DNA of 64,000 nt from Callorhinchus milii (taxonomy: Eukaryota), in assembly GCF_018977255.1 (NCBI RefSeq), contig NW_024704742.1, positions 70,062,001 through 70,126,000 on the forward strand, in the 5' to 3' direction. This document shows, one piece after another, positions 1 through 61,612 of the stretch. How positions within the stretch are numbered: position 1 is the first letter of the stretch; every line of letters starts with the position of its first letter. A program made the translations under genes and the position numbers. Below the pieces are notes generated by a model, which did not search any database, was not told where the DNA came from, and saw nothing but the letters and a program-made list of their open reading frames with translations.

Positions 1-34
1 CCAAAAATTTCACCTTGGAGCCAGTTGAGCTCAG

Positions 35-415
35 GATTTTACTGTAAAGTCAGTGTGTATTTTATAGACAACCGCGGCAGCCAATTTGCACACTATAACG
101 TCCCACACACAGCCATGAAATAAATGAACACATTTTATTTAGGAGATTGTTGGCCAGGACACCAGGCGAGAGAAACTCCCTTCTCTTTTCAAGTTGAGTG
201 CTGGATCTTTAACATCCACAAGCACAGGCACTGACGGGGAGCTCGGTTTAACGTCTCATCTGACAGACGGCATCTCCAATAATACAGCGCTCCCCTCCCC
301 CAGCACTGCACTGGAGCATCAGCCCTAACTTAGGTGCATTCAAAGTCACCCGATGAGGAGCTTGACACATAACTTTCTGACTCAGAGGGTAGAGTACTAC
401 CAATAGAGCCAGGTT
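35..415 (-). mobile_element. Deu-domain SINE
   Basis: Reverse-complement match to 705-1165. Confidence 0.8.
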
Positions 416-2667: not shown

Positions 2668-3008
2668 TGTGGAGTCCTGTAGCGTAGTGGTTAGAGCACT
2701 CGCCTCACAAGTGATATGAACCAGATTCGATTCCCGGGCAGGGCAAAACCTTGGGCAAGTTTCCTTATTTGACACACCTCTGTTTACCTAGTAGTTGGTG
2801 GTCGCTTTTCTGGGGGTAATCCCTTCAAAAAAAATTAATAATTGGGTCACTGAATCCATGACTGTTTGCGGGACACTGCTCTGCGCAATTGGCTGCCACA
2901 TTTCACTCGCAAAATACACAATCAATCTCCTTTATTGCGTGAAGCGCTTTGAGACGTCTCATTGATGTGATAAAGTCCTATATCAAATATAAGGATCATT
3001 ATTATTAT
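2668..3008 (+). mobile_element. tRNA-derived SINE, long older subfamily
   Basis: Same head plus an extra internal segment beginning ctgtttaccta. Confidence 0.85.
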
Positions 3009-3531
3009 AGCGCCTTATCATGTTGTTGAGACTTCTCAAAGCACTTCACAGGATATACTGTAAAGTGCAGTGGCTATGCATTTTATGGGTGAAATGTGGC
3101 AGCCAGTTGCGCATAGCAATTTTCCGCAGACTGCCATGAAGTGAGTAATTGATTTTATTTGGGGGATTGTTGGCCAGGACACCGGAAGAGAGAAACTTCC
3201 TTCTCTTTCCGAATTACGCCATGGGATCTTTTAACGACCACCTAAACAGGCACATGGGGTCTCATCCGAAGAAATGTTTAATAATTTTTAAAAAATCAAC
3301 CTACATGGAGGCTCAAACTACAGGCCATTCAACACATCACATCTGTGCTGGCATTCGCCGAGAAAATACATAATCACTACACTTTATATTAACTCCTGTG
3401 TGGTGGTTTGAGATGTCCTCTTGACATGAAAAGTGCACATGAAAGACGCAATAGGACGATTGTCTTTTTTCTGTGCTTTTTTCTTTGGTTCGATACCAAT
3501 TGCAAGGAGTATTATGAACAATGCTAATAAT

Positions 3532-8850: not shown

Positions 8851-9044
8851 ATTAAATTATCCCATTTAAGCCAGGAAACCACCCCATCTCTTGCTCTCTC
8901 TTGCTCTCTCCCTCTTTGTGAAGCGTTGTGGGAATAGGATTATTAACAGTCCCAGTTCCACTGATGATTATATTATTAATAATAATAAAACTTGTATAGT
9001 TATTAATACAATTATTAATATATTTGTCTGGTCATGTTTTTCAG

Positions 9045-9816
9045 ATATTTGGGGATAACTCGCCCTCTGACATACCCGGTGAGGCAGAACGGACGCTCGA
9101 TGGCTAAAATGGTGCTGATGGTTTGGTTGCTCTCGGCCTCTATCACTTTGCCGCCCTTGTTCGGCTGGGCCAAGAACGTCACGGTGGAGCGAGTGTGCCT
9201 CATCAGCCAAGACTTCGGCTATACCGTTTACTCCACAGGGGTGGCCTTCTACATGCCCATGACCGTCATGTTGGTCATGTACCATAGGATTTACAAGGCG
9301 GCCAAAATCAGCGCCGAGAGGCACAAGTTTGCCTGTGTCCCCTGGCGCTGTGAGCGGGAGGGGATCTACAGCATGGACAAGGACTCGCGAGCCCAGCATC
9401 CCGGGAAGCGGTCGAAGGCCGCGGAGGAGTGTGTGACCTTATCCAGGTTCCTCAGGCACGACAGGAGAAACATGTCTATCTTCAAGAGGGAGCAGAAGGC
9501 GGCTAGAACGTTGGGCATCATCGTGGGTGCCTTCACCTTCTGCTGGCTCCCTTTCTTCCTGCTCTCCACCGCCCGTCCTTTCATCTGTGGCATTGAGTGC
9601 AGCTGCATGCCCCTGAGGCTGGAGAGGACATTGCTCTGGCTGGGCTACACTAACTCCCTCGTCAACCCCATCATCTACGCCTTCTTCAACCGGGACCTGA
9701 GGACTACCTTTTGGAATCTGCTCCGCTGCCAATACCGCAACATCAACCGCAGGCTGTCAGCCGCCAGCATGCATGAGGCACTCAAAGCCACCGAGAGGCA
9801 CCAGTGCATATTATAA
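9045..9816 (+). CDS. HTR7: Terminal coding exon of a 5-hydroxytryptamine receptor 7-like GPCR (TM4-TM7 and C-tail); exon 1 not in window
   Basis: Translation has YLGITRPLTYPVRQNG, VWLLSASITLPPLFGW, CLISQDFGYTVYST, REQKAARTLGIIVGAFTFCWLPFF, NPIIYAFFNRDLR and RNINRRLSAA, all 5-HT7-typical. Acceptor tttttcAG (9043-9044) splits the Arg codon of the DRY motif, as in the known HTR7 intron. TAA at 9814-9816. May be a paralogue rather than the strict orthologue. Confidence 0.93.
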
Positions 9817-14933: not shown

Positions 14934-15268
14934 ATGGAGTTCTGTAGCTAAGTCAAGCGAGAGGACCTTTGTTCGATTTCTGGGCAGGGCGAAATGTTAG
15001 GCAAGTTTGCTCACTCTACACACCTTTGTTTAACTAGCAGTAAGTAGGAACCCAGTTATTAGTTAATTGGTGGATTGCTTTTCCGGGGATAATAATCCCT
15101 TAAAAAAATTTGGTCACTCAATCCACGACCGTTTGTGGGACACTGCTGTGCATGATTGGCTGCCACATTTCGCCCACAAAATATATAGTCAATTCACTTT
15201 ACAGTGTATTCTGTGAAACGCTTTGGGACGTCTCAAAGATGGAATAAGGCGCTGTATCAAATGCATTT
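14934..15268 (+). mobile_element. tRNA-derived SINE, long older subfamily
   Basis: Matches 3532-3905. Confidence 0.82.
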
Positions 15269-15639
15269 GATATAGTACCTTATCACATTGTCAAGACATT
15301 TCAAAATGCTTCACAGGAGATGCTGTAAAGTGGATTAACTGTTTATTTTGTGGTTGAAACACAGCAGACAGTTTGCGCACAGCAGTGTCCCACAAAAAGC
15401 CACGGAGCGAGCGACCAATTTGTTTTGGGGAATTGTTGGCCAGGACACTTGGGGAGAGAAACTCCCTTCTCTTTTTGAATAGTTGCATGGGATCTTTAGT
15501 TTCCATGTGAACAGGCAGACGGGGATGAACCAGAAGCCCATTGTACTCGTTGAGTCATCAATGGGAGACACCAAACGCTGAGAAACCAGGTTACTCAACA
15601 AAAACAACCACAGCTAAGATGGTGTGTCCCTCCTGACAA

Positions 15640-17645: not shown

Positions 17646-18789
17646 ATACTCCACCTCAATGCGATGTGGGCAGAAGTGAGAGAAGAATGTTTCTCCCAGT
17701 GGGAGGGGAAGAGAGAAGGAGGGAGGGAAACGGGGAAGATATCCACAGACACAGTAACGATGCCACCGTGGGAATGAAAGAGAATCTAGCGGACAGTTCG
17801 GATCTTTCCCTGCGTGCTATTAGCTCACCATTAGCTTACATCTCACCAAGCTAATGTCTACGGGCCATTAACTTAGTGAGATGTGAGCTAATGGGAAGCG
17901 ATACAGAACATGGGATGTCTGAGGCCGGATTAGTGAGCCGCTGTGATTGTCCATGGAGCATGGCATTTACACGGTAGAATTGTTTCTTAGGAACTTCCCG
18001 CTACACGGGGGATAATGGCAAACACTGACTGTTTTCAGTCACGTCCTATTACATCCCGCCTGACCGCACCTCTGTGAATAATCCCTTTACCAGAGCAGAC
18101 CTATATATAGCAGAGAACAAAGGGCCCACAGCTTTGCATCAACCTAGAATTAGCTCTGCACTGAAGGTTCCTTTCTTAGTTGTGAGTAGGCAGCAAATCC
18201 TCATGTCTAATAATAATAATCCTTGCATTTTATAGAGTGCCTAATCACATTGTTGAGATGCCTCAAAATGCTTCACAGGAATACTGTAAGGTGGATTGAC
18301 TGTATATTTTATGGGCAAAACGCGGACCCAATTGCACACAGCAGTGTCCCACAAACAGTCATTGATTGAAGGACCAAATTATTAGCCCCAGGAAAGCGAT
18401 CCACTAATCAACTAACAACCGGGTTCCTAGGAAACTTGATACATACATGAAGGAGAAGGGAATGGAGGGGTGTAGAAGAGGAAAATAGGTGGAGTGGAGG
18501 AGAGGGGACTAGGAAGGGAGGAGGCTTGTGTGAAAGCATAAATATCGGCATTAACCTATTGGGCTGAATGACGTGTTTCTGTGCTGTGTCACTCTGTGTA
18601 AGATTGGACCCACACATAGTGTGACACACACGTAGTGTGACTCCTATCTATCTGAAGGTTATGCATTCTTAACAGGTCCCTTTTCCCTTTTAAAACCTAC
18701 TCAGGCAATGAAATGCTAGCTTTTCAGGCTCAGTTTTGCAATTATTCTCTGCTTTCTGCACAAGTCAGTACCAATCTTTGTATGAGGGG

Positions 18790-29100: not shown

Positions 29101-30954
29101 ACCAACATTAATGATTGTTAATAAAATTAAAAAGACACAGGGAGCTTTTTATAGTGTGCCACCTTTTCATTTTAAAGCAGAATGAAACCCATCAATAATG
29201 AATCGATTATTACTTATATTATTACTTAGTATTGTTTACAGCTTTATAAAACATTCACTTCTTCTGTGTTTTTTTAATTTAATTAAAAATCATTCATTAT
29301 AAAAATAATTACTTCATGTGATTCATGATTGATGGGTTCCATTCCGCTTTTAATTTATTATTTTAATTTAATTTATTATCTTATTTTAATTTATTATTCA
29401 TCAATAATGAATCTTCCTCTGCGCCCGTGCCAATGGTCATCTCCCCCGTCCCACCTGCTCGGCGTCAGGCTCCTCCACTGTCAAGCGCACTGGGACGCGA
29501 CGCTGTTTGAGGGGCGGTATATACAAGTTGTTGTTGCAGTTATTTTTGCGTCGCTCGGTTGTGAAATTGGTTCCAAGTAACTAAGTCCTTCTGATAAAAC
29601 CTCCCAGAATGCATCCAACCAGAGTTGACAGCTCGAGTCTGTGCCCTGTTCAAGTGGATGTTGAAGATATGAGGATGCTCTTCAAAAACAGAAGGGAGTT
29701 TCTTTCTCCGGGTGTCCTGGATGACAATTCCCCCCCAAATAAAATTAGCCATTCACTTCACAGCTGTTTATGGGATGTTGCTGTGTAGAGCAACAGGGTC
29801 CGAAACATTGATTGTTCAACGCTTTGGGACGTCCTCCCGATGTGAAAGGCGCTATACAAATGTAATTTTGTTGTTGTACAAATTGGCTGTGTGTTGCCCT
29901 ACAAAATATATAGTCACTACACTTTACAGAAGATCCTGCGATACCCTTTGAGATGTCCTCCTGAATGTCAAAGGCCCTGTGTAAAAAAAAGACTTATTAT
30001 CATAAAGGAGGCTGGAAAATAATAATAATAATCCTTGCATTGTATTGTAAGGTGAATTGACTGTATATTGTTTGGGCAAAAATTTGGCAGCCAATTGCGT
30101 ACAGCAAAATTCCACAAACAGTCATGCATTGAATAATCACATTTTTTTTAGGGATTATTATGCCTGGAAAGCAATCTGCCAATCAATTAACAACCGGATT
30201 CCTACTTACTGCTAGATAAATAGAGGCGTGTGGAGTAAGGAAACTTAGCCTAAGCTTTCGACCTGCCCGGAAATGATATAAATATAAATGATGTGATTTA
30301 AGCATGTGTAACACAACAACAACAAATTACACTTGTATAGCGCCCTTCACATCGGGAAGACATCCCAGGGCGCTGGACAATCAGGGTTTTACAATGTTAC
30401 AAAATAAAGTCTGAGTGACACAACCCCTGGAATAGTTTGCACATCTGACCGCGAGTTGTATATTACACCCACTCTTTATCGCCGCACGACAACCCCAACA
30501 AGAAGATGCAACAGCGGCATCATAAAAATGGCCGCCTCTATGTCCGATCGCTGTTGACGTCAATCCCTTCCAGTGCTGACTGGTCAGATCATGTGCACGG
30601 CTCGAAGAGTGAAAATAATTCTTTTTCTCTTTACTGTTCAACGTGAATGGTCCTTTCGCATTGTCAGGTACATTTATTGGGGGGGTTGGGGGAGTGGGGG
30701 GGGTTGCAGGGGAGAGGTTTACAAATACCTGTTCCTGTGTTAATTATTGAAAGGGTCTCTGATCTTTTATATGAAATCAAATGCATCAGCAACTTTAAGA
30801 AACACAGGAATAGAGAGCGTTTTATAAAACACCTAATCTTTTTGTTTAAAGCGGAATGAAGCCCATCAATAATGAATCAACTGAAGTAGTCGCCCCCACA
30901 GCAACAGCCCATGCAAAAACAATAAGCTCCACCTGTAAAGTTTGGCCTCTTATA

Positions 30955-31540
30955 TCCTGCAAACCAAAGCCCTAATGGGTAGGAACAAAACACAAAATAC
31001 TGCAGATGCTGGAATCTGAAATAAAAACAGAGAGAGCTGGGAAAACTCAGCAGGTCAGGCGGCATCTATAGGGAAAGTAAAGTGAGTCAATGTTTCGGGT
31101 CCACGACCCTTTGTCAGTACGCAAGTTCAGACGAAGGGTTATGGACCCGAAACGTTGACTCCTTTCCCTATAGATGCCACCTGACCTGCTGAGTTTTCCC
31201 AGCTCTCCCTAATGGGTAGGGTTGTCCCAGGTGAACAAGCAGCAGGAAAGTTCGTCAGTTATACAAGCTATGCGGTTTCATCTGGTTAGACACCAGCAGT
31301 TACTCCAACACATACACCAACACACACTCGGGGGATCGCCAAGCCTGGGCTCTTGCCACCCTGTGTCAAAAACCTTCCAGGATTAGGTAATCAGGATGTG
31401 TCCCTCCAGGGAGAGAGTGCACATTCCACTATCGCTGGGATTTCCATGTGTAGGTGGGATGCATGGAATTCTCAATTTGGTTTGGATACTTTTAAGAATG
31501 GTGATAGGTTTCCGCACGTGTCAGACACCCGGCTGACCCC
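30955..31540 (+). mobile_element. LF-SINE-like repeat interrupted by the Penelope palindrome
   Basis: Sequence is continuous across the TSD once the insert is removed. Other copies near 4285, 8090, 11480, 27575, 28030, 33955, 34680 and 48855. Confidence 0.72.
30984..31206. mobile_element. Penelope-like terminal-repeat palindrome with a 14-bp target-site duplication
   Basis: Arms 31032-31117 and ~31125-31207 are near-perfect inverted repeats; CCCTAATGGGTAGG is duplicated at 30970-30983 and 31207-31220; homologous to the 3' end of the Penelope fragment at 61500-61612. Confidence 0.85.
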
Positions 31541-31894
31541 TCAAAAATACAAAGCTTCCACTGCTCTCAGGATTGACCGGCATTGACCGGTGGAGTCCTG
31601 CAGCTCACTGGTTAGAGCACTCACCTCGCAAGCGAGAGATCTGGGTTCTATTTCCGGGCAGGGTAAAATGTTAGGCAAGTTTCCTTACTCCACACGTAGC
31701 TGTTTACCTAGCAGTAAGTAGAAACCTGGTTGTTAGTTGATTGGCGAATCACTTTTCCCACAAAATATACAGTCAATTCACTTTACAATATATTCTCTGA
31801 AGCACTTTGAAATGTCTCCAAGACGTGATAAGGCACTATATCAAATGCAATGATTATTATTAATATCTCTTAATTGGTTGAAGTTGTCAATTGC

Positions 31895-47500: not shown

Positions 47501-47844
47501 AGGCAAGGAAACATTTATAAGTGCTTTAATACTGAAAGTGTAAAGCTCATTATATACTGTGTCCTCTTCCAAACAACAACAAGTGTGTCAGCCTGGCGCA
47601 GTGGTATCACTCTCACTTTTAAGTCAGAAGGTTATGGGTTCAAGCCCCATGTCGGGACTTGGAATTACACAGTCTAAGATGGAATTCCAATACAGTACTG
47701 GGGGTATGTTGCTGTGCACAAGTGGCTGCTGCATTTCACCCACAAAATACACAGTCAATTCACTTTACAGTATATTCTGTGAAGAGCATTGAGACATCTC
47801 AGTGATGGGATAAGGCACTGTATCAAAGGCAAGGATTATTATTA

Positions 47845-48092
47845 ACAATTCACATTTACACAGTGCGTTCACATTGAAGGATGCCTCAATGCTCTTCGCA
47901 CTGGGAGCCAGCACTGGGATGGGGGGATGAGGGGAGGGGTGGGGCGGAGGTTGGGGAGAGTTGGGGGAAGAGTTGAGGAGAGTGGGGTTGGGTGGTGGTT
48001 GAAAGCATCATGGAAGAGATAGGTCTTCAGGTCAGTTTTGGAGGCTTGTAGGGAGGGAGCAAAGTGGAGGGACTCCAGGATGGAGTTCCAGA
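47845..48092 (-). mobile_element. L2 LINE 3' fragment
   Basis: LWNSILESLHFAPSLQASKTDLKTYLF on the minus strand. Confidence 0.7.
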
Positions 48093-48104
48093 GCACAGGC
48101 GGCA

Positions 48105-48450
48105 GAATAATAATATTCCTTGCATTTGATATAGTGCCTTATCACGTTTTCAAGACATCCAAAGCACTTCACAGAATATACTGAAAAGTGTAGTGACTGT
48201 ATTTTGTGGGTAAATGTGGTAGCCAATTGCACATAGGAGTATCCCACAAACAGTCGTGGATTGAGTGACCAAATTTTTTTTAAGGGATTATTACCCTCAG
48301 AAAGTGATCCACCAATCGACTAGCAACTGGCTTATTACTTACTGCTGGGTAAACAGTAGCGTGAGGAGTAAGAAACCTTGCCTACCATTTCAACCTGCCC
48401 AGGAATTGAATCCAGGTCTTCTCGCTTGAGGAGAGCGCTCCAACAACTAA
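48105..48450 (-). mobile_element. tRNA-derived SINE, long older subfamily
   Basis: Reverse-complement match. Confidence 0.78.
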
Positions 48451-49579
48451 GCTAAAAGACTCCATAATGGCTGAAAGTCCAATCGCCGATGATGAGGTTT
48501 GTCGGGCGGAGATCATAAAATTGAGCGGGGGGATGGCTCGCAGGTATGGTCACAGTGGTAGGGCTGTGGGGAGTGGGGGAGGAGGCCATGGAGGGATTTG
48601 GAACGCAAGGACGAAGATCTTGAATTCGATTTGCTGCGGGAGGGAGGGGGAGCGAGCACTCAGGAGATGGAGTCATCTTCACAGTGGGCACATCTGTTTG
48701 CCAAGGCACCTCCCACACGAGGACCAGGATTAAGCAGCTGTTGCTGAGTAAGCCTGGTACACAGCATTGAACTTGTACTTTGAGAACATCAAGGTGGCTG
48801 TTACGTGACAAGTTGTCCTGTAAAGGTCCTCCCACTACACTGAAATCAGATGTCCAGGGCAAGAGAGTGCACATTCCATTACAAACACAGGAATTTCCAT
48901 GTGTCGATGCGATGCATGGAATTCTCAATTTGGTTTGGATACTCTTAACCACAGCGATGGATTTCTGCACGTGTCAGACACCCGGTTGACCTATGAAACA
49001 ATCCTGTGATACAATATAACACGAAACAAACAAGTGTTAACTTCACTCTGACATTTTGTTGAGATATAATGGAGAATTTAAAGGTTTTGTGAGAGTAATA
49101 AAGCCAGAGAATTGGATATTAACCTCAAATACTCTCAATTTCGCTTTCAGCCTTGCTCCTTCATTAGCTTTTTTGATGGGAAAAAGAGCCTCAGCAAAAT
49201 ACGTATTGATACAGGGATCACATTTGCTCGGCAATAATAGCGCTTCAATCCTCTCCCCCCCAACCAGTGTCAGAATTGCCATGACAAGTGATGACAAGTG
49301 AATCTGAGGTCCCATCTGCCTGTTCAGGTGGACGTTAAAAATCCTGTATCACTATTCAAAAAAAACGTGAATTTCTCATGGGGTCCTGGCCAACAATCAG
49401 ATAACCTGTGTTCAGGGGACATCTCAAAGGATTTCACTGCACAGTGTAGTGACTGTGTATTTTATAGACGAATGCGGAAATCAATTTGTGTATAACAACA
49501 TCCCGCAAACAGTCATGGAATGAATGATCAGTTTTATCTGGGAGATTGTTGGCCAGGACAAGGGGAGAGAGAGAAACTG

Positions 49580-51045
49580 TCTTGATTGGAAAATTGCAAA
49601 CGTGACACCACTATTTAAGAAGGGTGGGAGAGAAAAGATGGGGAACTATAGACCAGTTAGTCTGACTTCAGTGGTAGGGAAAATTCTTGAGTCCTTAATT
49701 AAGGATGTTGTTATGGGATTCCTGGAAGACCATAACAAGATTAAGCAGAGTCAACATGGCTTTACAAAAGGGAAGTCATGCTTAACTAATCTTTTAGAGT
49801 TTTTTGAAGATGTATCTAGCAGGTTAGATAGGGGGGAATCAGTAGATGTAGTATATTTAGATTTTAAAAATGCATTTGACAAAGTGCCACACAAAAGGCT
49901 ATTGCAGAAGGTTAAGGCCCACGGGATTAATGGGAACATATTAGCATGGATTGAAGAGTGGCTAACGGGTAGAAAACAGAGAGTAGGGATAAACGGGTCA
50001 TTCTCGAATTGGCAGGATGTGACTAGTGGAGTGCCACAAGGATCAGTGCTTGGGCCTCAGCTATTTACGATTTACATCAATGATCTAGACGAGGACATTG
50101 AATGTAACGTATCTAAATTCGCGGATGACACTAAACTAGGTGGGAGAGTAAGCTCTGAGGATGATGCAAAAAGATTGGAATGGGATATAGATAGGCGAGG
50201 GGAGTGGGCGAGTAGGTGGCAGATGGAATTTAATGTGGGGAAGTGTGAAGTTATTCACCTAGGTAGAAAAAATAGAAAAACAGATTATTTTCTAGAGGGG
50301 AAGAGATTAGATAGTGTTAGTGTTCAGAGGGATTTGGGTGTCCTTGTACACCAGTCTCAAAAAGTTAGTTTGCAGGTGCAGCAAGCAACTAAGAAGGTGA
50401 ACGGCATGTTAGCGTTCATTGCGAAAGGTTTAGAGTACAAGAGTAGGGAAGTCTTGCTGCAACTGTATAGGACCTTGGTGAGACTGCACCTAGAGTATTG
50501 TGTGCAGTTTTGGTCTCCTTATTTAAAAAAGGACATACTTGCCCTAGAGGGGGTGCAGCGTAGATTCACTCGGTTAGTTCCTGGGATGAGGGGACTGACC
50601 TATGAGGATAGGCTGAATAAACTAGGGCTATATTCTCTAGAGTACAGAAGAATTAGGGGAGATCTTATTGAAACATATACGATTCTTAAAGGGCTGGATA
50701 GAATAGACACTGAGGGTCTGTTTCCCCTGGTAGGAGAATCTATAACCAGGGATCACAGTCTTAAAATTAAGGGTCAGCCTCTTAGAACAGAGTTGAGGAA
50801 ACATTTCTTCACTCAGAGGGTAGTGAATTTATGGAATTTACTACTCCAGAAGGCTGTAGATGCTCAGTCCTCGAACATCTTCAAGGCTGAGACTGATAGA
50901 TTTTTTAAAAAACAGAGGGATTAGGGGATATGGGGATAGGGCAGGTAAATAGAGTTAGGTCTGAAGGTCAGCCATGATCTTATTGAATGGCGGGGCAGGC
51001 TTGAGGGGCTGAATGGCCTACTCCTGCTCCTAATTCTTATGTTTT
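49580..51045 (+). mobile_element. 5'-truncated CR1 LINE with uninterrupted RT domain, inserted into an antisense Deu-SINE
   Basis: ORF to 50924 with DWKIANVTPLFKKG, DFKNAFDKV, GVPQGSVLGP and FADD; CR1 3' UTR (ggctgaatggcctactcctgctcc). SINE halves flank it. Confidence 0.95.
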
Positions 51046-53387: not shown

Positions 53388-53860
53388 GGCAGTGGGGTGT
53401 CAGAATCAAGCCCCTATGTGTGATGGTCTCTAGTCCAGTTACTGAGCCAAGTGAATCTGCAGTATTCTAGGCCACTACTAATGACAGCAAGGTCAGCCTG
53501 GCTCATCGGCAGGACTTAGAAGGGCAGAGCAGTCACTGGGACCAGGGAATATTCCCATTCAGTTCCTGTTAACCCTGCAGACCAAAGCCTTAACAGGTAG
53601 GATGGTCCTAGCTGGATGAGCAGCGGGAAAGCTAGTGATATAATGGTAAGCTACGTGCTTTTAGCTGTTTGGACTCCAGAAATTACCCCAACACATTCGG
53701 GGGTCCCCAAGCCTTGGCTCTTGCCAACCTGCGTCTAACAGATGGAATTAGGGAAACAGCTTTGGCTTGCAGGATCAACAGGAGCTGAGTGTGAGGATTC
53801 CCTGCACCCAGTAACCAGTCTGGCCCTCCAAGCCCTACCGATGAGCCAAGCTGGTTGATC
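53388..53860. mobile_element. LF-SINE-like repeat: + copy (to ~53745) followed by a short inverted piece
   Basis: Matches 46515-46950; 53755-53858 is the reverse complement of part of the same element. Confidence 0.68.
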
Positions 53861-54649
53861 CGTCATCAGGTGTGCAGGACTCTTGGCATAGCGGTACAGT
53901 AATGTGACCAAATGAAATCTGACCTCTACATCTCTGACATGTATGTGCGTGTGGAGAGAAGGGGGGTGGGGGGTAGAGATGGGGAGGGGCTTGAATCCTA
54001 TTGAGACCAATACCGACTGAGCCAGGCTGACACCTACTGTACATGGAGAGGCTGCAATGTGAAGCTGATTGCAAATCTGTGGTTGAAACAGTCCTTTGTC
54101 CAGTGCAAATGGAGATCCCGTAGTGTAGTGGTTAGCGTGTTTGCCTTGCAAGTGAGAGGTCGATTCTCAACCAGGCAAAACTATAGGCAAGTTTACTTAC
54201 TCCACATGCCTTTATTTACCTCGCAGTAAGTAGGAACCTGGTTGGTAAAACACTCGGGATCTCATCCTATATAGGGAACTATATAAATGCAAGGTGTTCT
54301 TGTTAGTCTATTGGCGGATCACTTTCTGGGGTAATAATCCCTCCACAAAAAAATCCACGACTGTTTGTGGGACATTGCTGTGTGCAATTGGCTGCATAAT
54401 TCCCCCACAAAATACACAGTCAATTCACTTTACAATATATTCTCTAAAGTGCTTTGAGACATCTCGAAGACATGATAAGGTAAGAATAAATGCAAGGATT
54501 ATTATTACTATTATTATTGATGCAGTGCTTTTTATGTCAGGAGGATGTCTCAGTAATGATAATAACAATAAACTTTGCATTTGACATAGTGTTTCATCAG
54601 TAAAAAGTCTCAAAGTGCTTCACAGAATATATTGCAAAGTGAATTGATT

Positions 54650-57600
54650 GAGAGTCCAACAGCTTGAGGAGGGAACTGAATAAGAATTCTGTTAAGGACT
54701 TTGGTGAGAGTGGGAATTAGGTGCAGAAGGGGAAAGAGGTGCATAATTATAAAATATATAATATTTACATTAAAACAATATAAAACATGTCTGGGAATAT
54801 GGCAGAGCAGCTGAGACAGGATGCATGCACGATGTGTGCTATGTGGGAACTCCAGGATGCTTTATGTACCCTGGACAAACAAATGTGTAGGAAGTGCCTC
54901 CAACTGCTCGAGCGTGAGCTCAGGGTTTCTGAGCTTGAGGAAAGGCTGGTGTTACTACGTAGCATACGGGTGGCTGAAGAGTTCATGGATTGAACTTTTC
55001 AAGAGGTTGTCTCCCCATAGCCACTGAAGGTTCAGAAGGAGACTGAGTGGGTGACCACCCATTATGGTAGGAAGAGGGGACGGGCAGTACAGAAATCCTG
55101 TGAGTGTGTGGCATTCACAAACCTGTTCTCTGTAATAAACAGCGGTCAGGGTGATGACATCACTGGGGAGAGGAATCAAAGGTCAATGGATGCACAGGGG
55201 GACACAGGGAAGAGTGTCAATGCAATTGTCATTGGGGACACAATAATGAAAAGAGTAGTCAGACGTTTCTGCAACCAAAAGAGCGACTCTCACATGGTAT
55301 GTTGACTTCCTGGTGCCAGGGTTGAAGATATCATAGAACGAGTACAAAATGTTCTACTGGGGGAAGGGCAACATGTTGGGATCCATGATGTAGGAAAAAA
55401 AAAGGGCTGAGATCCTATAGGGAGAGTGTCAGAAGCTGGAGAAAAAGCTAAAGAGTAGGATCTCAAAGGGGGTGATCTCTGGACTACTCCCAGTGCCTCA
55501 TGCAAGTGAGCATCAAAACAGCAGGATCAAACACAGGAATGCATGGGTTGAGAAATGGTGCAGAAAGGAGGGCTTCAGTTGATGTAATTTATATGGATCA
55601 TTGGGACCAGTTCTGGGGCAGGTGGGACCTGTACAAAGTGGATGGGTTACACCTGAATAGGCTGGGACTAATGTCCTCGCAGGGAAGGGTTTAAACTAAT
55701 TTTGAGGGTAGAAGGGAATCTGGGAAATGAATGGGGCAAGTGGAGAGCTTTCAGTAGGAGAGCATCTGAACAACAGTGATCACAACATCATTAGATTTAG
55801 AGTACTTATGGAAAGGGACAAGGAGCAATCAAAGTTGAAGATACTTAACTGGAAGAGGGCAAATTTCAGTGAGTTAAAAAGGGACCTAGTCATGGTGGAC
55901 TGGAAAGAAAAATTGGCAGATAAAACAGCTAACGAGCGATGGGAAGCCTTCAAGGAGGAGATAGTTCAGGGATGGAACAATACATTCCCACAAAGGGGAA
56001 AAGTAGGGCATCCAAACCTCCCTGGATGAATAATTAAATTGGGATTAAAATAAGACAGAAAAAGGAGGTTTATGATAAATGTCAGATTCAAAATACAGAA
56101 GCTAATCAAATAGATTAAAGAAAGTACAGAGGAGAACCGAAAAAGGAAAAAAGAGGGGCAAGGAGATTGTGTGAGAAAAGATTAGTGGGTAACATAAATG
56201 GCTAAGGTATTTTATAAACATATAAAGAGTGAAAGGTTAGTCAAAGGTAGGGTGGGACCAATTAGGGACCAAAGAGGAAATCTTCTTGTGGAGGCAGAGG
56301 CTGATGTACTGAATGAGTACTTTGGATCTGTCTTCACAAAAGAAGATGCAGCCAATGCCACAGTATTGGAGCAGAGGGTAGAGAAATTGGATAAGATAAG
56401 AATAAACAGAGAGGAAGTAATAAAGGTTGTTGGTGCTCAAGGTAGATAAGTCGCCCGTGCCGGACAGGATGCAGCCTAGGTTACTGAGGGAAGTAAGGGT
56501 GGAAATAGCGGAGGCTCTGGCCACAACCTTTCAAACCTCCTTGGACACCGGGGTGGTGCCAGAGGACTGGAGGGTTGCAAATCTTACTCCCCTGTACAAA
56601 AAGGGGCAGAAGGATAAACCCAGGAACTACAGGCCAGTCAGCCTAACATCAGTAGTGGGGAAACTTCTAGAGACTATAAACCAAGACAAAATAAATTTTT
56701 AATTGGAAAATATGAGTTAATAAAGGTCAGCCAACACGGGTTTGTTAAAGGCAAATAATGTCTAACAAACCTGATAGAGTATTTTGATGAAGTAACGAAG
56801 AGGGTGGATGAAGGTAGTGCAGTTGATGTAGTTTATATAGATTTTCAAAAGGTGTTTGATAAAGTGCCACATAAGAGACTTGTAAGCAAAATAGAAGCCC
56901 ACGATATTAAAGGGACAGTGGCAGCGGATACAGAACTTGCTGGGAGACAGAAAGCAGAGTGGTGGTGAATGGTTGTTTTTCTGACTGGAGGGAAGTGTTC
57001 AGTTGTGTCCCCCAGGGATCAGTTTTGGGACCACTGCTATTTTTGATCTATGTAAATGTCCTGGACTTGGGTATAGGGAGTACAATTGCCAAGTTTGCAG
57101 ATGATACTAAGCTAAGAAAAGTAGTAAACAGTGAGGAGGATAGTAGCAGACTGTGAATGGACATAGACAGACTGGTAAAATGGGCAGACACTTGGACGAT
57201 GAAGTTTAATGTGGAGAAATGCAAAGTGATGCATTTTGAGAGGAAGAATAAGGAGAGGCAATATAAGCTGATGGTACAATCTTAAAGGGGGCGAAGAAAC
57301 AGAGAGAACTGGGGGTTCATATCAGTAAATCTTTGAAGGTGGCTGGACAGGTAGATAAAGCTGTTAAAAAAGCATATGGGATACTAGGCTTTATAAATAG
57401 TGGCAAAGAATACAAAAGTCAGGAAGTTATGATGACCTTTATAAAACACTGGTTTGGCCTCAGCTAGAGTACATGTTCAGTTCTGGGCACCGCACTTTAG
57501 GAAGGATGTCAAGGCATTGTAGAGGATGCAAAGGAGATTTACCAGGATTGTACCAGGAATGAGGGACTTTAGCTATCAGGAGAGGCGAGAGAAGCTGGGA

Positions 57601-60110: not shown

Positions 60111-61186
60111 TAGGGCTCAGTCACAACATCTCAGGATTGGCTTGGATGAAGGAAGCCACGGAGTGAGGGAGGGAGCGAGGGAGGGAGCATGTGTGAGACA
60201 GAGGGACTCCAAAGAGCGGGAGCTGGGAGAGATGAGAAGCAATTAGCAATGAGGCTCAGGTGACAGAATGTAAATCCATTTTCATTATATGTAGTTAGAG
60301 GACATGACAGCAACTTAGCAAACAAGCCGTGATCCTTGCCAACAGGTTTGTGAAGCTTTCCTCAGGCATTGTGAGTCTTATTATGCGTAGGAGGCAGATT
60401 GTCTTCTCCACAAATTGGTGTTGACAGGGAATCAAACCAGGGACTCCGTGGAACTTTTTAATTCAAAGCAATTAACCTTTGGTGATCTCAACCACAACTC
60501 TACCACTATGCTGGGTACAACAATAAAAATATTTTTCCCACAAAATAGACAGTCAATCCACATTACAATATATTCTATGAAGCTCTTTGAGACATCTCAA
60601 CCACGTGATAAGGCTCTATATCAAATCCTTCTCAGGATTTACTGCAAAGTGTGGTGACTATTTTGTGGCTGAATGTGGCAGCCAATTTGCACACACCCCA
60701 GCGAAATCCCACAAACAGCTGTGTAGTGTGTGATCGATTTTATCTGGGGGTTGTGAGCGAGGACACTGGAAGAGAGAAACTCCTTTCTCTTTTCCAATAG
60801 AGCTGTGAGATCTTTAATGTCCACCTGAACAGGCAGATGGGACCTTGGTTTAAAGTCTCATCTGAAGGACAGCAACTCCAACAATGCCACACACCCCTCA
60901 GCCTCGACTGTGTGATTCCATGTCTGCTGGAGTCCCATAGTGTAGTGGTTAGTGCACTCGCTTCACAAATAAGAGGACCCGGGTTTAATTCCCGGGCGGG
61001 GTGAAACGCTACAAGTTTCTGTTTGCCTAGCAGTAAGTAGGAACCCATCTTTTAGTTGATTGGCAGATCGCTTTCTAGGGATAATAATCCCTCCAAAGAA
61101 AAATTGGTCACTCAATCCACGACTTTGTGGGACATTGTTGTGTGCTACATTTCATCCACAAAATAGTCAATCTACTGTATAATATT

Positions 61187-61612
61187 GCAAGTTTGAGGAA
61201 CAGCACCTCATCTACTTCCTAGGCACCTTACAGCCCTCACTATTGATTTTAACCACGATAGACCTAAAACACAGCTTCCATCTTCTCTCAGCCTTCCCTC
61301 CCTCCTTCTCCTCCTGTAACCTATAACACATCCTCTGAGTCTCAGACAAATCTTTTCTTTCCATGATCTCCCACTATTGCCTCTTTTGTCTTGCATCATC
61401 AACACCCCTGATCTCCTGTCCTTCACGTAATTTTTTCCTGTGTTTTTCTTTCCTGCCCCTTCTCTGTTGGTCCTTATAACTTGCTCCCTTCCAACATCCC
61501 CCAATTCTGATAAAAGATCATCTTTTATCATCTGAAACGTTACCTCACTTTCCTCTCTCCATTGATACTGCCTGACCTGCTGAGTGTTACCAGTGATTTC
61601 TGTTTTTATTCC
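61187..61612 (+). mobile_element. Penelope-like element 3' fragment (GIY-YIG C-terminus and terminal repeat) inserted in a SINE
   Basis: KFEEQHLIYFLGTLQPS matches the PLE endonuclease C-terminal motif; followed by a pyrimidine-rich UTR and ctgataa..gaaacgtta..tgcctgacctgctgagt. Confidence 0.82.

What the first reader, a model, noticed from the sequence alone, without database searches (positions are those of the whole stretch)
30970..31220. 223-bp Penelope-derived palindrome with two back-to-back hammerhead-like cores, inserted with a perfect 14-bp TSD
Seen: CCCTAATGGGTAGG flanks the insert on both sides, and the insert folds into a hairpin of about 80 bp per arm. The + strand reads agtt-CAGACGA-a-gggtt.atg.gaccc-GAAAC-GTT-gact (31124-31160). 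The - strand reads gta-CTGACAA-a-gggtc.gtg.gaccc-GAAAC-ATT-gac. Known: Penelope-like elements carry minimal type I hammerheads (CUGANGA..GAAA, vestigial stem III) in their terminal repeats, which can be inverted. Inference: a non-coding mini-element made only of inverted ribozyme-bearing termini was mobilised as a unit. Each arm has different core mutations, so their consensus restores CUGACGA..GAAAC-GUU.
Basis: partly seen in the sequence, partly recalled or inferred. Interest (0 to 1): 0.7.

Follow-up and report, generated by a model that had tools for sequence, protein, structure and literature searches.

The report
Decayed fold-back Penelope retroelement stub
This 223-base insert is two head-to-head copies of the end piece of a very abundant Penelope-like jumping gene, each with a broken copy of that element's already-described minimal self-cutting RNA motif, so it is a real but ordinary piece of retrotransposon debris.

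Summary
A 223-nt insert (30984-31206) lies between identical 14-mers, and 5 of 5 aligned copies of the host repeat carry that 14-mer once, so the duplication is a true TSD. Only 174 nt fold back; one arm has an unpaired 49-nt tail. The arms are ends of a high-copy family whose core reads CUGA in about 95% of laid depth in four runs and fits the published minimal hammerhead of Penelope-like elements. Head-to-head ends, a one-sided tail and a TSD are the described Penelope insertion pattern. 'Mobilised as a unit' is not supported. Many family copies continue into ordinary upstream sequence, other fold-back joints lie at different points, and both arms share three rare bases, so one template made both. 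Each core has a mutation, and the hairpin buries either ribozyme by 23-41 kcal/mol. The link to a Penelope protein rests on a by-eye match of a 17-residue remnant. The scan has noted this kind of insert before, in this genome and in two others. Open point: whether the fold-back site just before the core is a hotspot.

The parts
30970..30983 (+). Left target-site duplication, 14 nt; part of a host interspersed repeat
30984..31032 (-). Unpaired 49-nt tail of the left arm, running to the family's distal 3' end
   Evidence: Outside the hairpin; 5 of the 32 contig pieces shown begin at 30983-30988 (table 8)
31033..31120 (-). Left arm: Penelope-type end sequence read on the minus strand
   Evidence: high summed depth in 4 of 4 runs
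31085..31120 (-). Left minimal hammerhead motif, C3 at 31117; core CUGACAA (G8 to A), helix III C-G pair lost, helix I partly broken
31121..31124 (.). Head-to-head junction (GCAA), 3-4 nt upstream of both cores
31124..31160 (+). Right minimal hammerhead motif, C3 at 31128; core CAGACGA (U4 to A), 5-bp helix II, presumptive cleavage after 31156
   Evidence: family base at 31129 is T
31124..31206 (+). Right arm, tail-less, 6 nt shorter than the left arm at a short internal repeat; ends with 3-of-4 microhomology to the target
31207..31220 (+). Right target-site duplication, 14 nt
30946..31540 (+). Host interspersed repeat interrupted by the insert
   Evidence: BLAST to other window copies, alignment, high depth over 31208-31567
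61185..61610 (+). Second, single-arm copy of the same family: remnant of a GIY-YIG-like reading-frame end, 3' untranslated stretch, decayed hammerhead, short end
   Evidence: 79% identity over 77 nt, E 4e-14; translation; by-eye likeness to Neptune endonuclease ends; no significant database hit

Best explanation
A single, extremely 5'-truncated insertion of an endonuclease-bearing Penelope-like element (probably Neptune clade), made at this site in one event. Shown: insertion into an older repeat with a 14-nt duplication; two head-to-head copies of the family's end; only one carries the tail; both came from one template. Inferred: the element's GIY-YIG endonuclease cut the two target strands 14 nt apart. 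Reverse transcription began at the distal start site (long arm) and ran through an uncleaved hammerhead to 3-4 nt before the core. The mirror arm arose at the site, either because the new cDNA folded back and copied itself or because the second nick primed a second cDNA at the proximal start site; the two cannot be told apart here, and the near-exact symmetry leans to fold-back. The copy then decayed, mostly at CpG. It is inert: no reading frame or promoter is known in it, each core is mutated, and the hairpin prevents either hammerhead from folding.
For: TSD proven by single-copy target in 5 of 5 aligned host copies. Layout equals the typical Penelope unit: inverted pLTR, optional tail on one end, 8-10-bp TSD, head-to-head most frequent (PMC3846280, passages and Discussion; PMC8557442 passages). 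Purified anole Penelope protein cuts and extends both strands, has two reverse-transcription start sites whose spacing is the tail, and uses uncleaved RNA (PMC11167929, parts 1-2 of 4). Both arms share the rarer base at 31061, 31070 and 31072, where 96-99% of depth in run X1 has another base. Summed depth rises 2-5-fold from the tail bin to the next bin in 4 of 4 runs, as expected of two kinds of end. Loose ends behind 31117 give upstream sequence in X5, X10 and X12 (240, 153, 78 records, agreement 0.42-0.51) that resembles the stretch before the core in the window's single-arm copy. 6 of 15 joints shown join the arms at other points. Forcing the hammerhead costs 37-41 (+) or 23-31 (-) kcal/mol in the insert against 4.7 and 3.1 in an isolated arm.
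Against: No genome was held, so copies could not be listed with their ends and TSDs. Depth at the centre (31122) is 356 in X1 against 8.25 on the unique flank, and 3 contigs of X10 cross the same centre with 3 letters fewer (depth 244.5 of 4489.6): the same junction recurs, which fits a hotspot but also a small subfamily. Summed depth is no copy number, contigs handle hairpins badly, and joints at likeness 80 with sides under 30 nt may be other repeats or later deletions; 331 joints were not shown. The protein link is by eye only; four searches gave no hit. The tail (49 nt) and TSD (14 nt) are longer than in the papers read (30-40 nt; 8-10 bp). The shared rare bases could also come from arm-to-arm conversion after insertion.
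Confidence: 0.75

Rival explanations
1. A non-autonomous palindromic mini-element: a hairpin RNA ending in the tail is copied as a unit by the Penelope protein.
For: Centre depth above single-copy level in X1 and X5, and 3 X10 contigs crossing the same centre. pLTR sequences alone can be mobilised in trans (PMC3846280 passage), and non-autonomous hammerhead-bearing PLE derivatives are described (abstract, part 1 of 5 and passages of 10.64898/2026.07.22.740005). An unchecked scan note reports a 225-nt fold-back with a 14-bp TSD in this genome.
Against: Centre depth is under 1% of peak arm depth in 4 of 4 runs and may be overhang of single arms; other joints vary; the X10 centre differs in length from this one. 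A fully double-stranded RNA is a poor template (inference). The window's only other copy is single-armed.
Confidence: 0.15
2. A single-arm insertion was duplicated in inverted form later by DNA repair or replication, or two copies landed side by side.
For: Arm identity and shared rare bases are also expected of a later inverted duplication.
Against: The TSD encloses both arms exactly with no host sequence lost or copied; two independent copies would not share three rare bases; the pattern is the published insertion signature.
Confidence: 0.05
3. A functional RNA: self-cleaving dimer, circular RNA, or hairpin source of small RNAs against the family.
For: Very stable hairpin; if read through, it would give about 80 bp of double-stranded family sequence.
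Against: Both cores mutated and buried; dimer activation is described for tandem same-strand motifs, and is weak even then (PMC4209133); substitutions follow CpG decay with no compensating change among 7 arm differences.
Confidence: 0.05

Closest known systems
Insertion units of endonuclease-positive Penelope-like elements with inverted pLTR and one-sided tail (PMC3846280, passages and Discussion read; PMC8557442, passages and one supplement part read)
   Same: Head-to-head inverted ends, tail on one end only, whole unit enclosed by a TSD, heavy 5' truncation.
   Different: No reading frame is left in this unit: both arms stop 3-4 nt before the hammerhead core. TSD 14 nt against 8-10 bp, tail 49 nt against 30-40.
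Minimal type I hammerheads (min-HHR) of metazoan PLEs (PMC4209133, parts 1-2 of 4 and supplement file 2 part 2 read)
   Same: CUGANGA + one unpaired base + G-C-closed helix II + GAAA + C/G palindromic vestige of helix III + UH + short helix I. The paper also notes pairs of motifs on opposite strands 100-700 bp apart in Schistosoma.
   Different: Here the pair is 10 nt apart, each motif has a core mutation, and each is paired with its antisense copy. No shark or Callorhinchus entry was found in the supplement file searched (file 1 was not searched).
Poseidon element PAc of Anolis carolinensis (PMC11167929, parts 1-2 of 4 read)
   Same: Gives the biochemistry that would make this layout: both strands cut and extended, two start sites, uncleaved RNA as template.
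   Different: Other clade; in vitro only; formation of the inverted junction was not shown there; it prefers AT-rich targets, and this 14-mer is 57% G+C.
Non-LTR retrozymes (10.64898/2026.07.22.740005, part 1 of 5 and passages; PMC7229834, search listing only)
   Same: Small non-coding, type I hammerhead-bearing, PLE-derived.
   Different: Defined by head-to-tail tandem units with intact motifs; this insert is inverted, not tandem, and its motifs are broken.

Membership tests
Penelope-like element insertion (EN+) | Inverted head-to-head pLTR ends | tested here: met
Penelope-like element insertion (EN+) | Optional tail on one end only | tested here: met
   49-nt unpaired extension 30984-31032; depth step in 4 of 4 runs
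Penelope-like element insertion (EN+) | Target-site duplication around the whole unit | tested here: met
   14 of 14; single in 5 of 5 host copies aligned
Penelope-like element insertion (EN+) | Family end attached to an RT + GIY-YIG reading frame | tested here: inconclusive
   17-residue remnant at 61186-61236 shares 8 residues by eye with the Neptune1_Nv endonuclease end in Fig. S2 of PMC8557442; no hit; no RT seen
Metazoan min-HHR | Secondary layout (helix I, bulge, G-C-closed helix II, GAAA, palindromic vestige, UH) | tested here: met
   (right arm fully; left arm with decay)
Metazoan min-HHR | Intact CUGANGA core in this copy | tested here: not met
   U4A on +, G8A on -
Metazoan min-HHR | Intact core in the family | tested here: met
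   T at 31129 in 95-98% of depth in 4 of 4 runs.
Metazoan min-HHR | Self-cleavage | not testable with these tools
   Only folding energies were computed
Rfam hammerhead families | Covariance-model match | tested here: not met
   None among 37 matches at E up to 10
Non-LTR retrozyme | Two or more head-to-tail units with complete motifs | tested here: not met
   No tandem array here; arms inverted
Non-autonomous mini-element moved as a unit | Many copies sharing both ends and the centre, each with its own TSD | tested here: inconclusive
   Distal end shared; centre low and variable, yet recurring in 3 contigs of X10; no genome

The most novel reading that the evidence does not exclude
The point 3-4 nt before the hammerhead core is a recurrent stop-and-fold-back site of Penelope reverse transcription, set by the folded uncleaved ribozyme or by an RNA boundary there, or it defines a small hairpin subfamily that spreads as a unit with both ribozymes switched off by their own antisense arm. 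In either case the many stubs in such genomes would be a natural data set for deciding how Penelope's inverted ends form, which the papers read call unresolved.
Probability: 0.2. Interest if true: 0.5.

Novelty: new member of a known kind. Interest (0 to 1): 0.2.

Why it matters
On its own it matters little: it is one decayed copy among very many. It is a clean minimal example of the Penelope insertion signature (inverted ends, one tail, TSD) and shows that the template crossed an uncleaved hammerhead, in line with the in vitro work on the anole element. As a class, such stubs could separate fold-back from double priming, and they warn that hairpin-shaped Penelope stubs can be mistaken for MITEs, microRNA hairpins or working ribozymes.

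Tried and rejected
Genome-wide copy search: no genome held. Pattern scans for family copies: viral contigs 0 and 0; metagenome contigs 6 loci and prokaryote genomes 2 loci, all bacterial-looking chance matches with nothing beyond the pattern. Protein searches with the short remnant at 61183: 2 candidates, none scoring; PDB 0; Pfam 0 for three short peptides; Atlas no usable hit. These blanks are weak, given the length. Rfam MIR533 match over the hairpin, 38.8 bits against a gathering score of 80: rejected as hairpin chance. Expression: no RNA holder listed; the four runs laid are contigs, and no RNA run was laid. Empty site in another organism: the X5 contig matches 30629-30970 and then stops fitting; no joint skipping exactly the insert was among the 15 shown, so this is inconclusive. 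The X1 contig covers 30560-31008 without mismatch but has only 25 letters beyond the left junction and may be the window's own source. Literature: no paper held shark + Penelope + Neptune + inverted, Penelope + cartilaginous fish + hammerhead ribozyme or the family 14-mer; two searches gave nothing relevant. The library lacks most subscription papers and Repbase/Dfam, so the family may already be named there. Supplements of the bioRxiv preprint were not seen and may hold the cartilaginous-fish families.

Full report
Observation. The 14-mer CCCTAATGGGTAGG stands at 30970-30983 and 31207-31220 around a 223-nt insert. The insert folds far better than shuffles (-166 against -70.1 +/- 4.8 kcal/mol, z -20). 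The pairing covers 31033-31206: 82 positions with 7 mismatches, a 6-nt bulge and a 4-nt centre. The first 49 nt are an unpaired tail that belongs to the left arm only. A minimal-hammerhead descriptor found no perfect motif in the 64 kb and two motifs with one core mismatch, exactly these two; 20 control sequences gave two hits in all. Rfam listed no hammerhead family among 37 matches.

The TSD is real. Exact 14-mers 100-500 nt apart are common in this repeat-rich window (25 cases), so the repeat alone proves little. The insert, however, sits inside an older interspersed repeat. I aligned 5 of the 7 other copies that BLAST placed at the junction, and all 5 run through the target once and continue as the right flank does. 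At the right end the arm's own continuation matches the target at 3 of 4 letters, so the boundary is blurred by a base.

The family. No genome was held, so I laid contigs of four public runs (X1, labelled organism A, the best holder; X5, X10 and X12, labelled B, C and D) on 30560-31610 at likeness 80. Summed depth in X1 is 8.25 on the unique flank and up to 177,281 on the left arm; the other three runs show the same shape. The tool warns that this is no copy number, but the family is clearly abundant. Five of the 32 pieces shown begin at 30983-30988, so the left end is the family's own end. Depth rises 2-5-fold from the tail bin to the next bin in all four runs, as two kinds of end would give. 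At 31129, where this copy has CAGA, 95-98% of depth reads T, so the family core is CUGA. With that the motif fits the published consensus of metazoan Penelope min-HHRs (supplement of PMC4209133). The window has one other copy, single-armed, at 61185-61610 (79% over 77 nt). It is preceded by a remnant translating KFEEQHLIYFLGTLQP, which by eye shares 8 of 17 residues with the end of the Neptune1_Nv endonuclease in Fig. S2 of PMC8557442. Four searches with this short peptide gave nothing, so the protein link is a resemblance, not a test passed. That the host is a cartilaginous fish is my recall of these repeats, and comes from no call.

Unit or on-site product? Against a unit: loose ends behind 31117 in X5, X10 and X12 (240, 153 and 78 records, agreement 0.42-0.51) continue into upstream sequence like that before the core in the single-arm copy, not into a mirror arm. 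Six of the 15 joints shown connect the two arms at other points (31014 to 31125, 31133 or 31182; 31060 to 31124; 31064 to 31133; 31069 to 31160); 331 joints were not shown, and such short-sided joints may also be deletions or other repeats. Depth at the centre is under 1% of the arm peak in all four runs. For a unit, or at least a recurrent junction: centre depth in X1 is 356 against 8.25 on the flank, though single arms can overhang there, and 3 contigs of X10 cross the same centre with 3 letters fewer. Both arms share the rarer base at 31061, 31070 and 31072, where 96-99% of X1 depth differs, so both were copied from one template or homogenised later; they are not two independent neighbours.

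Mechanism. Papers describe the typical Penelope insertion as a truncated inverted copy joined head to head, a 30-40-nt tail on one end and a TSD of 8-10 bp (PMC3846280, passages and Discussion; PMC8557442, passages). The anole protein cuts and extends both strands, starts at two sites whose spacing is the tail, and uses uncleaved RNA (PMC11167929, parts 1-2 of 4). The insert is that pattern with nearly everything truncated away. Each arm spans the presumptive cleavage site, so the template was uncleaved (inference). The mirror arm came from fold-back of the cDNA or from a second primed cDNA. Both arms stop within a base of each other, which leans to fold-back, the reading that PMC3846280 also prefers, but this is not shown.

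Function. Five of 7 arm differences are transitions at CpG, including G8 to A in the left core. Changing G8 to C abolishes cleavage of the anole motif; that G8A and U4A do likewise is inference from general hammerhead knowledge. More decisive is the geometry: in either direction the antisense arm is made first. Forcing helices I and II with an open core costs 37-41 kcal/mol on the plus strand and 23-31 on the minus strand, already when the transcript has just passed the motif, against 4.7 and 3.1 for an isolated arm (secondary structure only). The dimer activation described for min-HHRs needs same-strand tandem motifs and is weak (PMC4209133, parts 1-2 of 4).

Earlier notes. After forming my reading I looked at the scan's notes: none by sequence or nearby, two in other genomes and eight shown of nine in this genome. 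They reach the same verdict on other DNA. They are unchecked and I count them as no support.

Verdict. Real, well observed, and a new instance of a described kind. Interest 0.2. The one open lead is whether the junction just before the core is a hotspot or marks a small subfamily.

Noticed in passing
window 61185-61610 (+): Single-arm, 5'-truncated copy of the same family set inside a SINE-like repeat; its hammerhead is decayed and its end lies about 13 nt beyond the right arm's end, well short of the tail end. No clear TSD.
   Followed up: partly
family sequence just before the core (loose ends; window 61495-61507): The upstream sequence ends in a pyrimidine run plus AG two bases before the core, like a 3' splice site. 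PMC4209133 reports the Drosophila virilis intron ending at the 5' side of helix I. It could bear on why junctions fall here; untested.
   Followed up: no
window 15091-15437, 2849-3146, 47743-48208, 53473-53874, 54417-54650: Several closely spaced inverted pairs at 72-92% arm identity. The one I read, at 15091-15437, is two SINE-like 3' parts joined tail to tail with no spacer, which hints at insertion into the ends of earlier copies.
   Followed up: partly
window 2674-60995, 11 sites: tRNA-derived SINE heads scoring 22-50 bits against the Rfam tRNA model, one at 31595-31665 just right of the host repeat.
   Followed up: no
window 9019-9816 (+): Open frame of 265 residues with a rhodopsin-family 7tm_1 match, E 7.5e-38; it looks like the last exon of a serotonin receptor 7 gene (recalled, not tested).
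   Followed up: partly
window 49524-50924 (+): 466-residue open frame with RVT_1 match, E 8.6e-33; CR1-type LINE by recall.
   Followed up: partly
window 17823-17899: Isolated 34-bp hairpin with a 9-nt loop, 85% complementary; weak microRNA-model matches far below gathering score.
   Followed up: no
window 29107-29353 and 30845-30888: Nested AT-rich inverted repeats, one arm of which recurs 85 nt left of the finding; possibly a small DNA-transposon relic.
   Followed up: no
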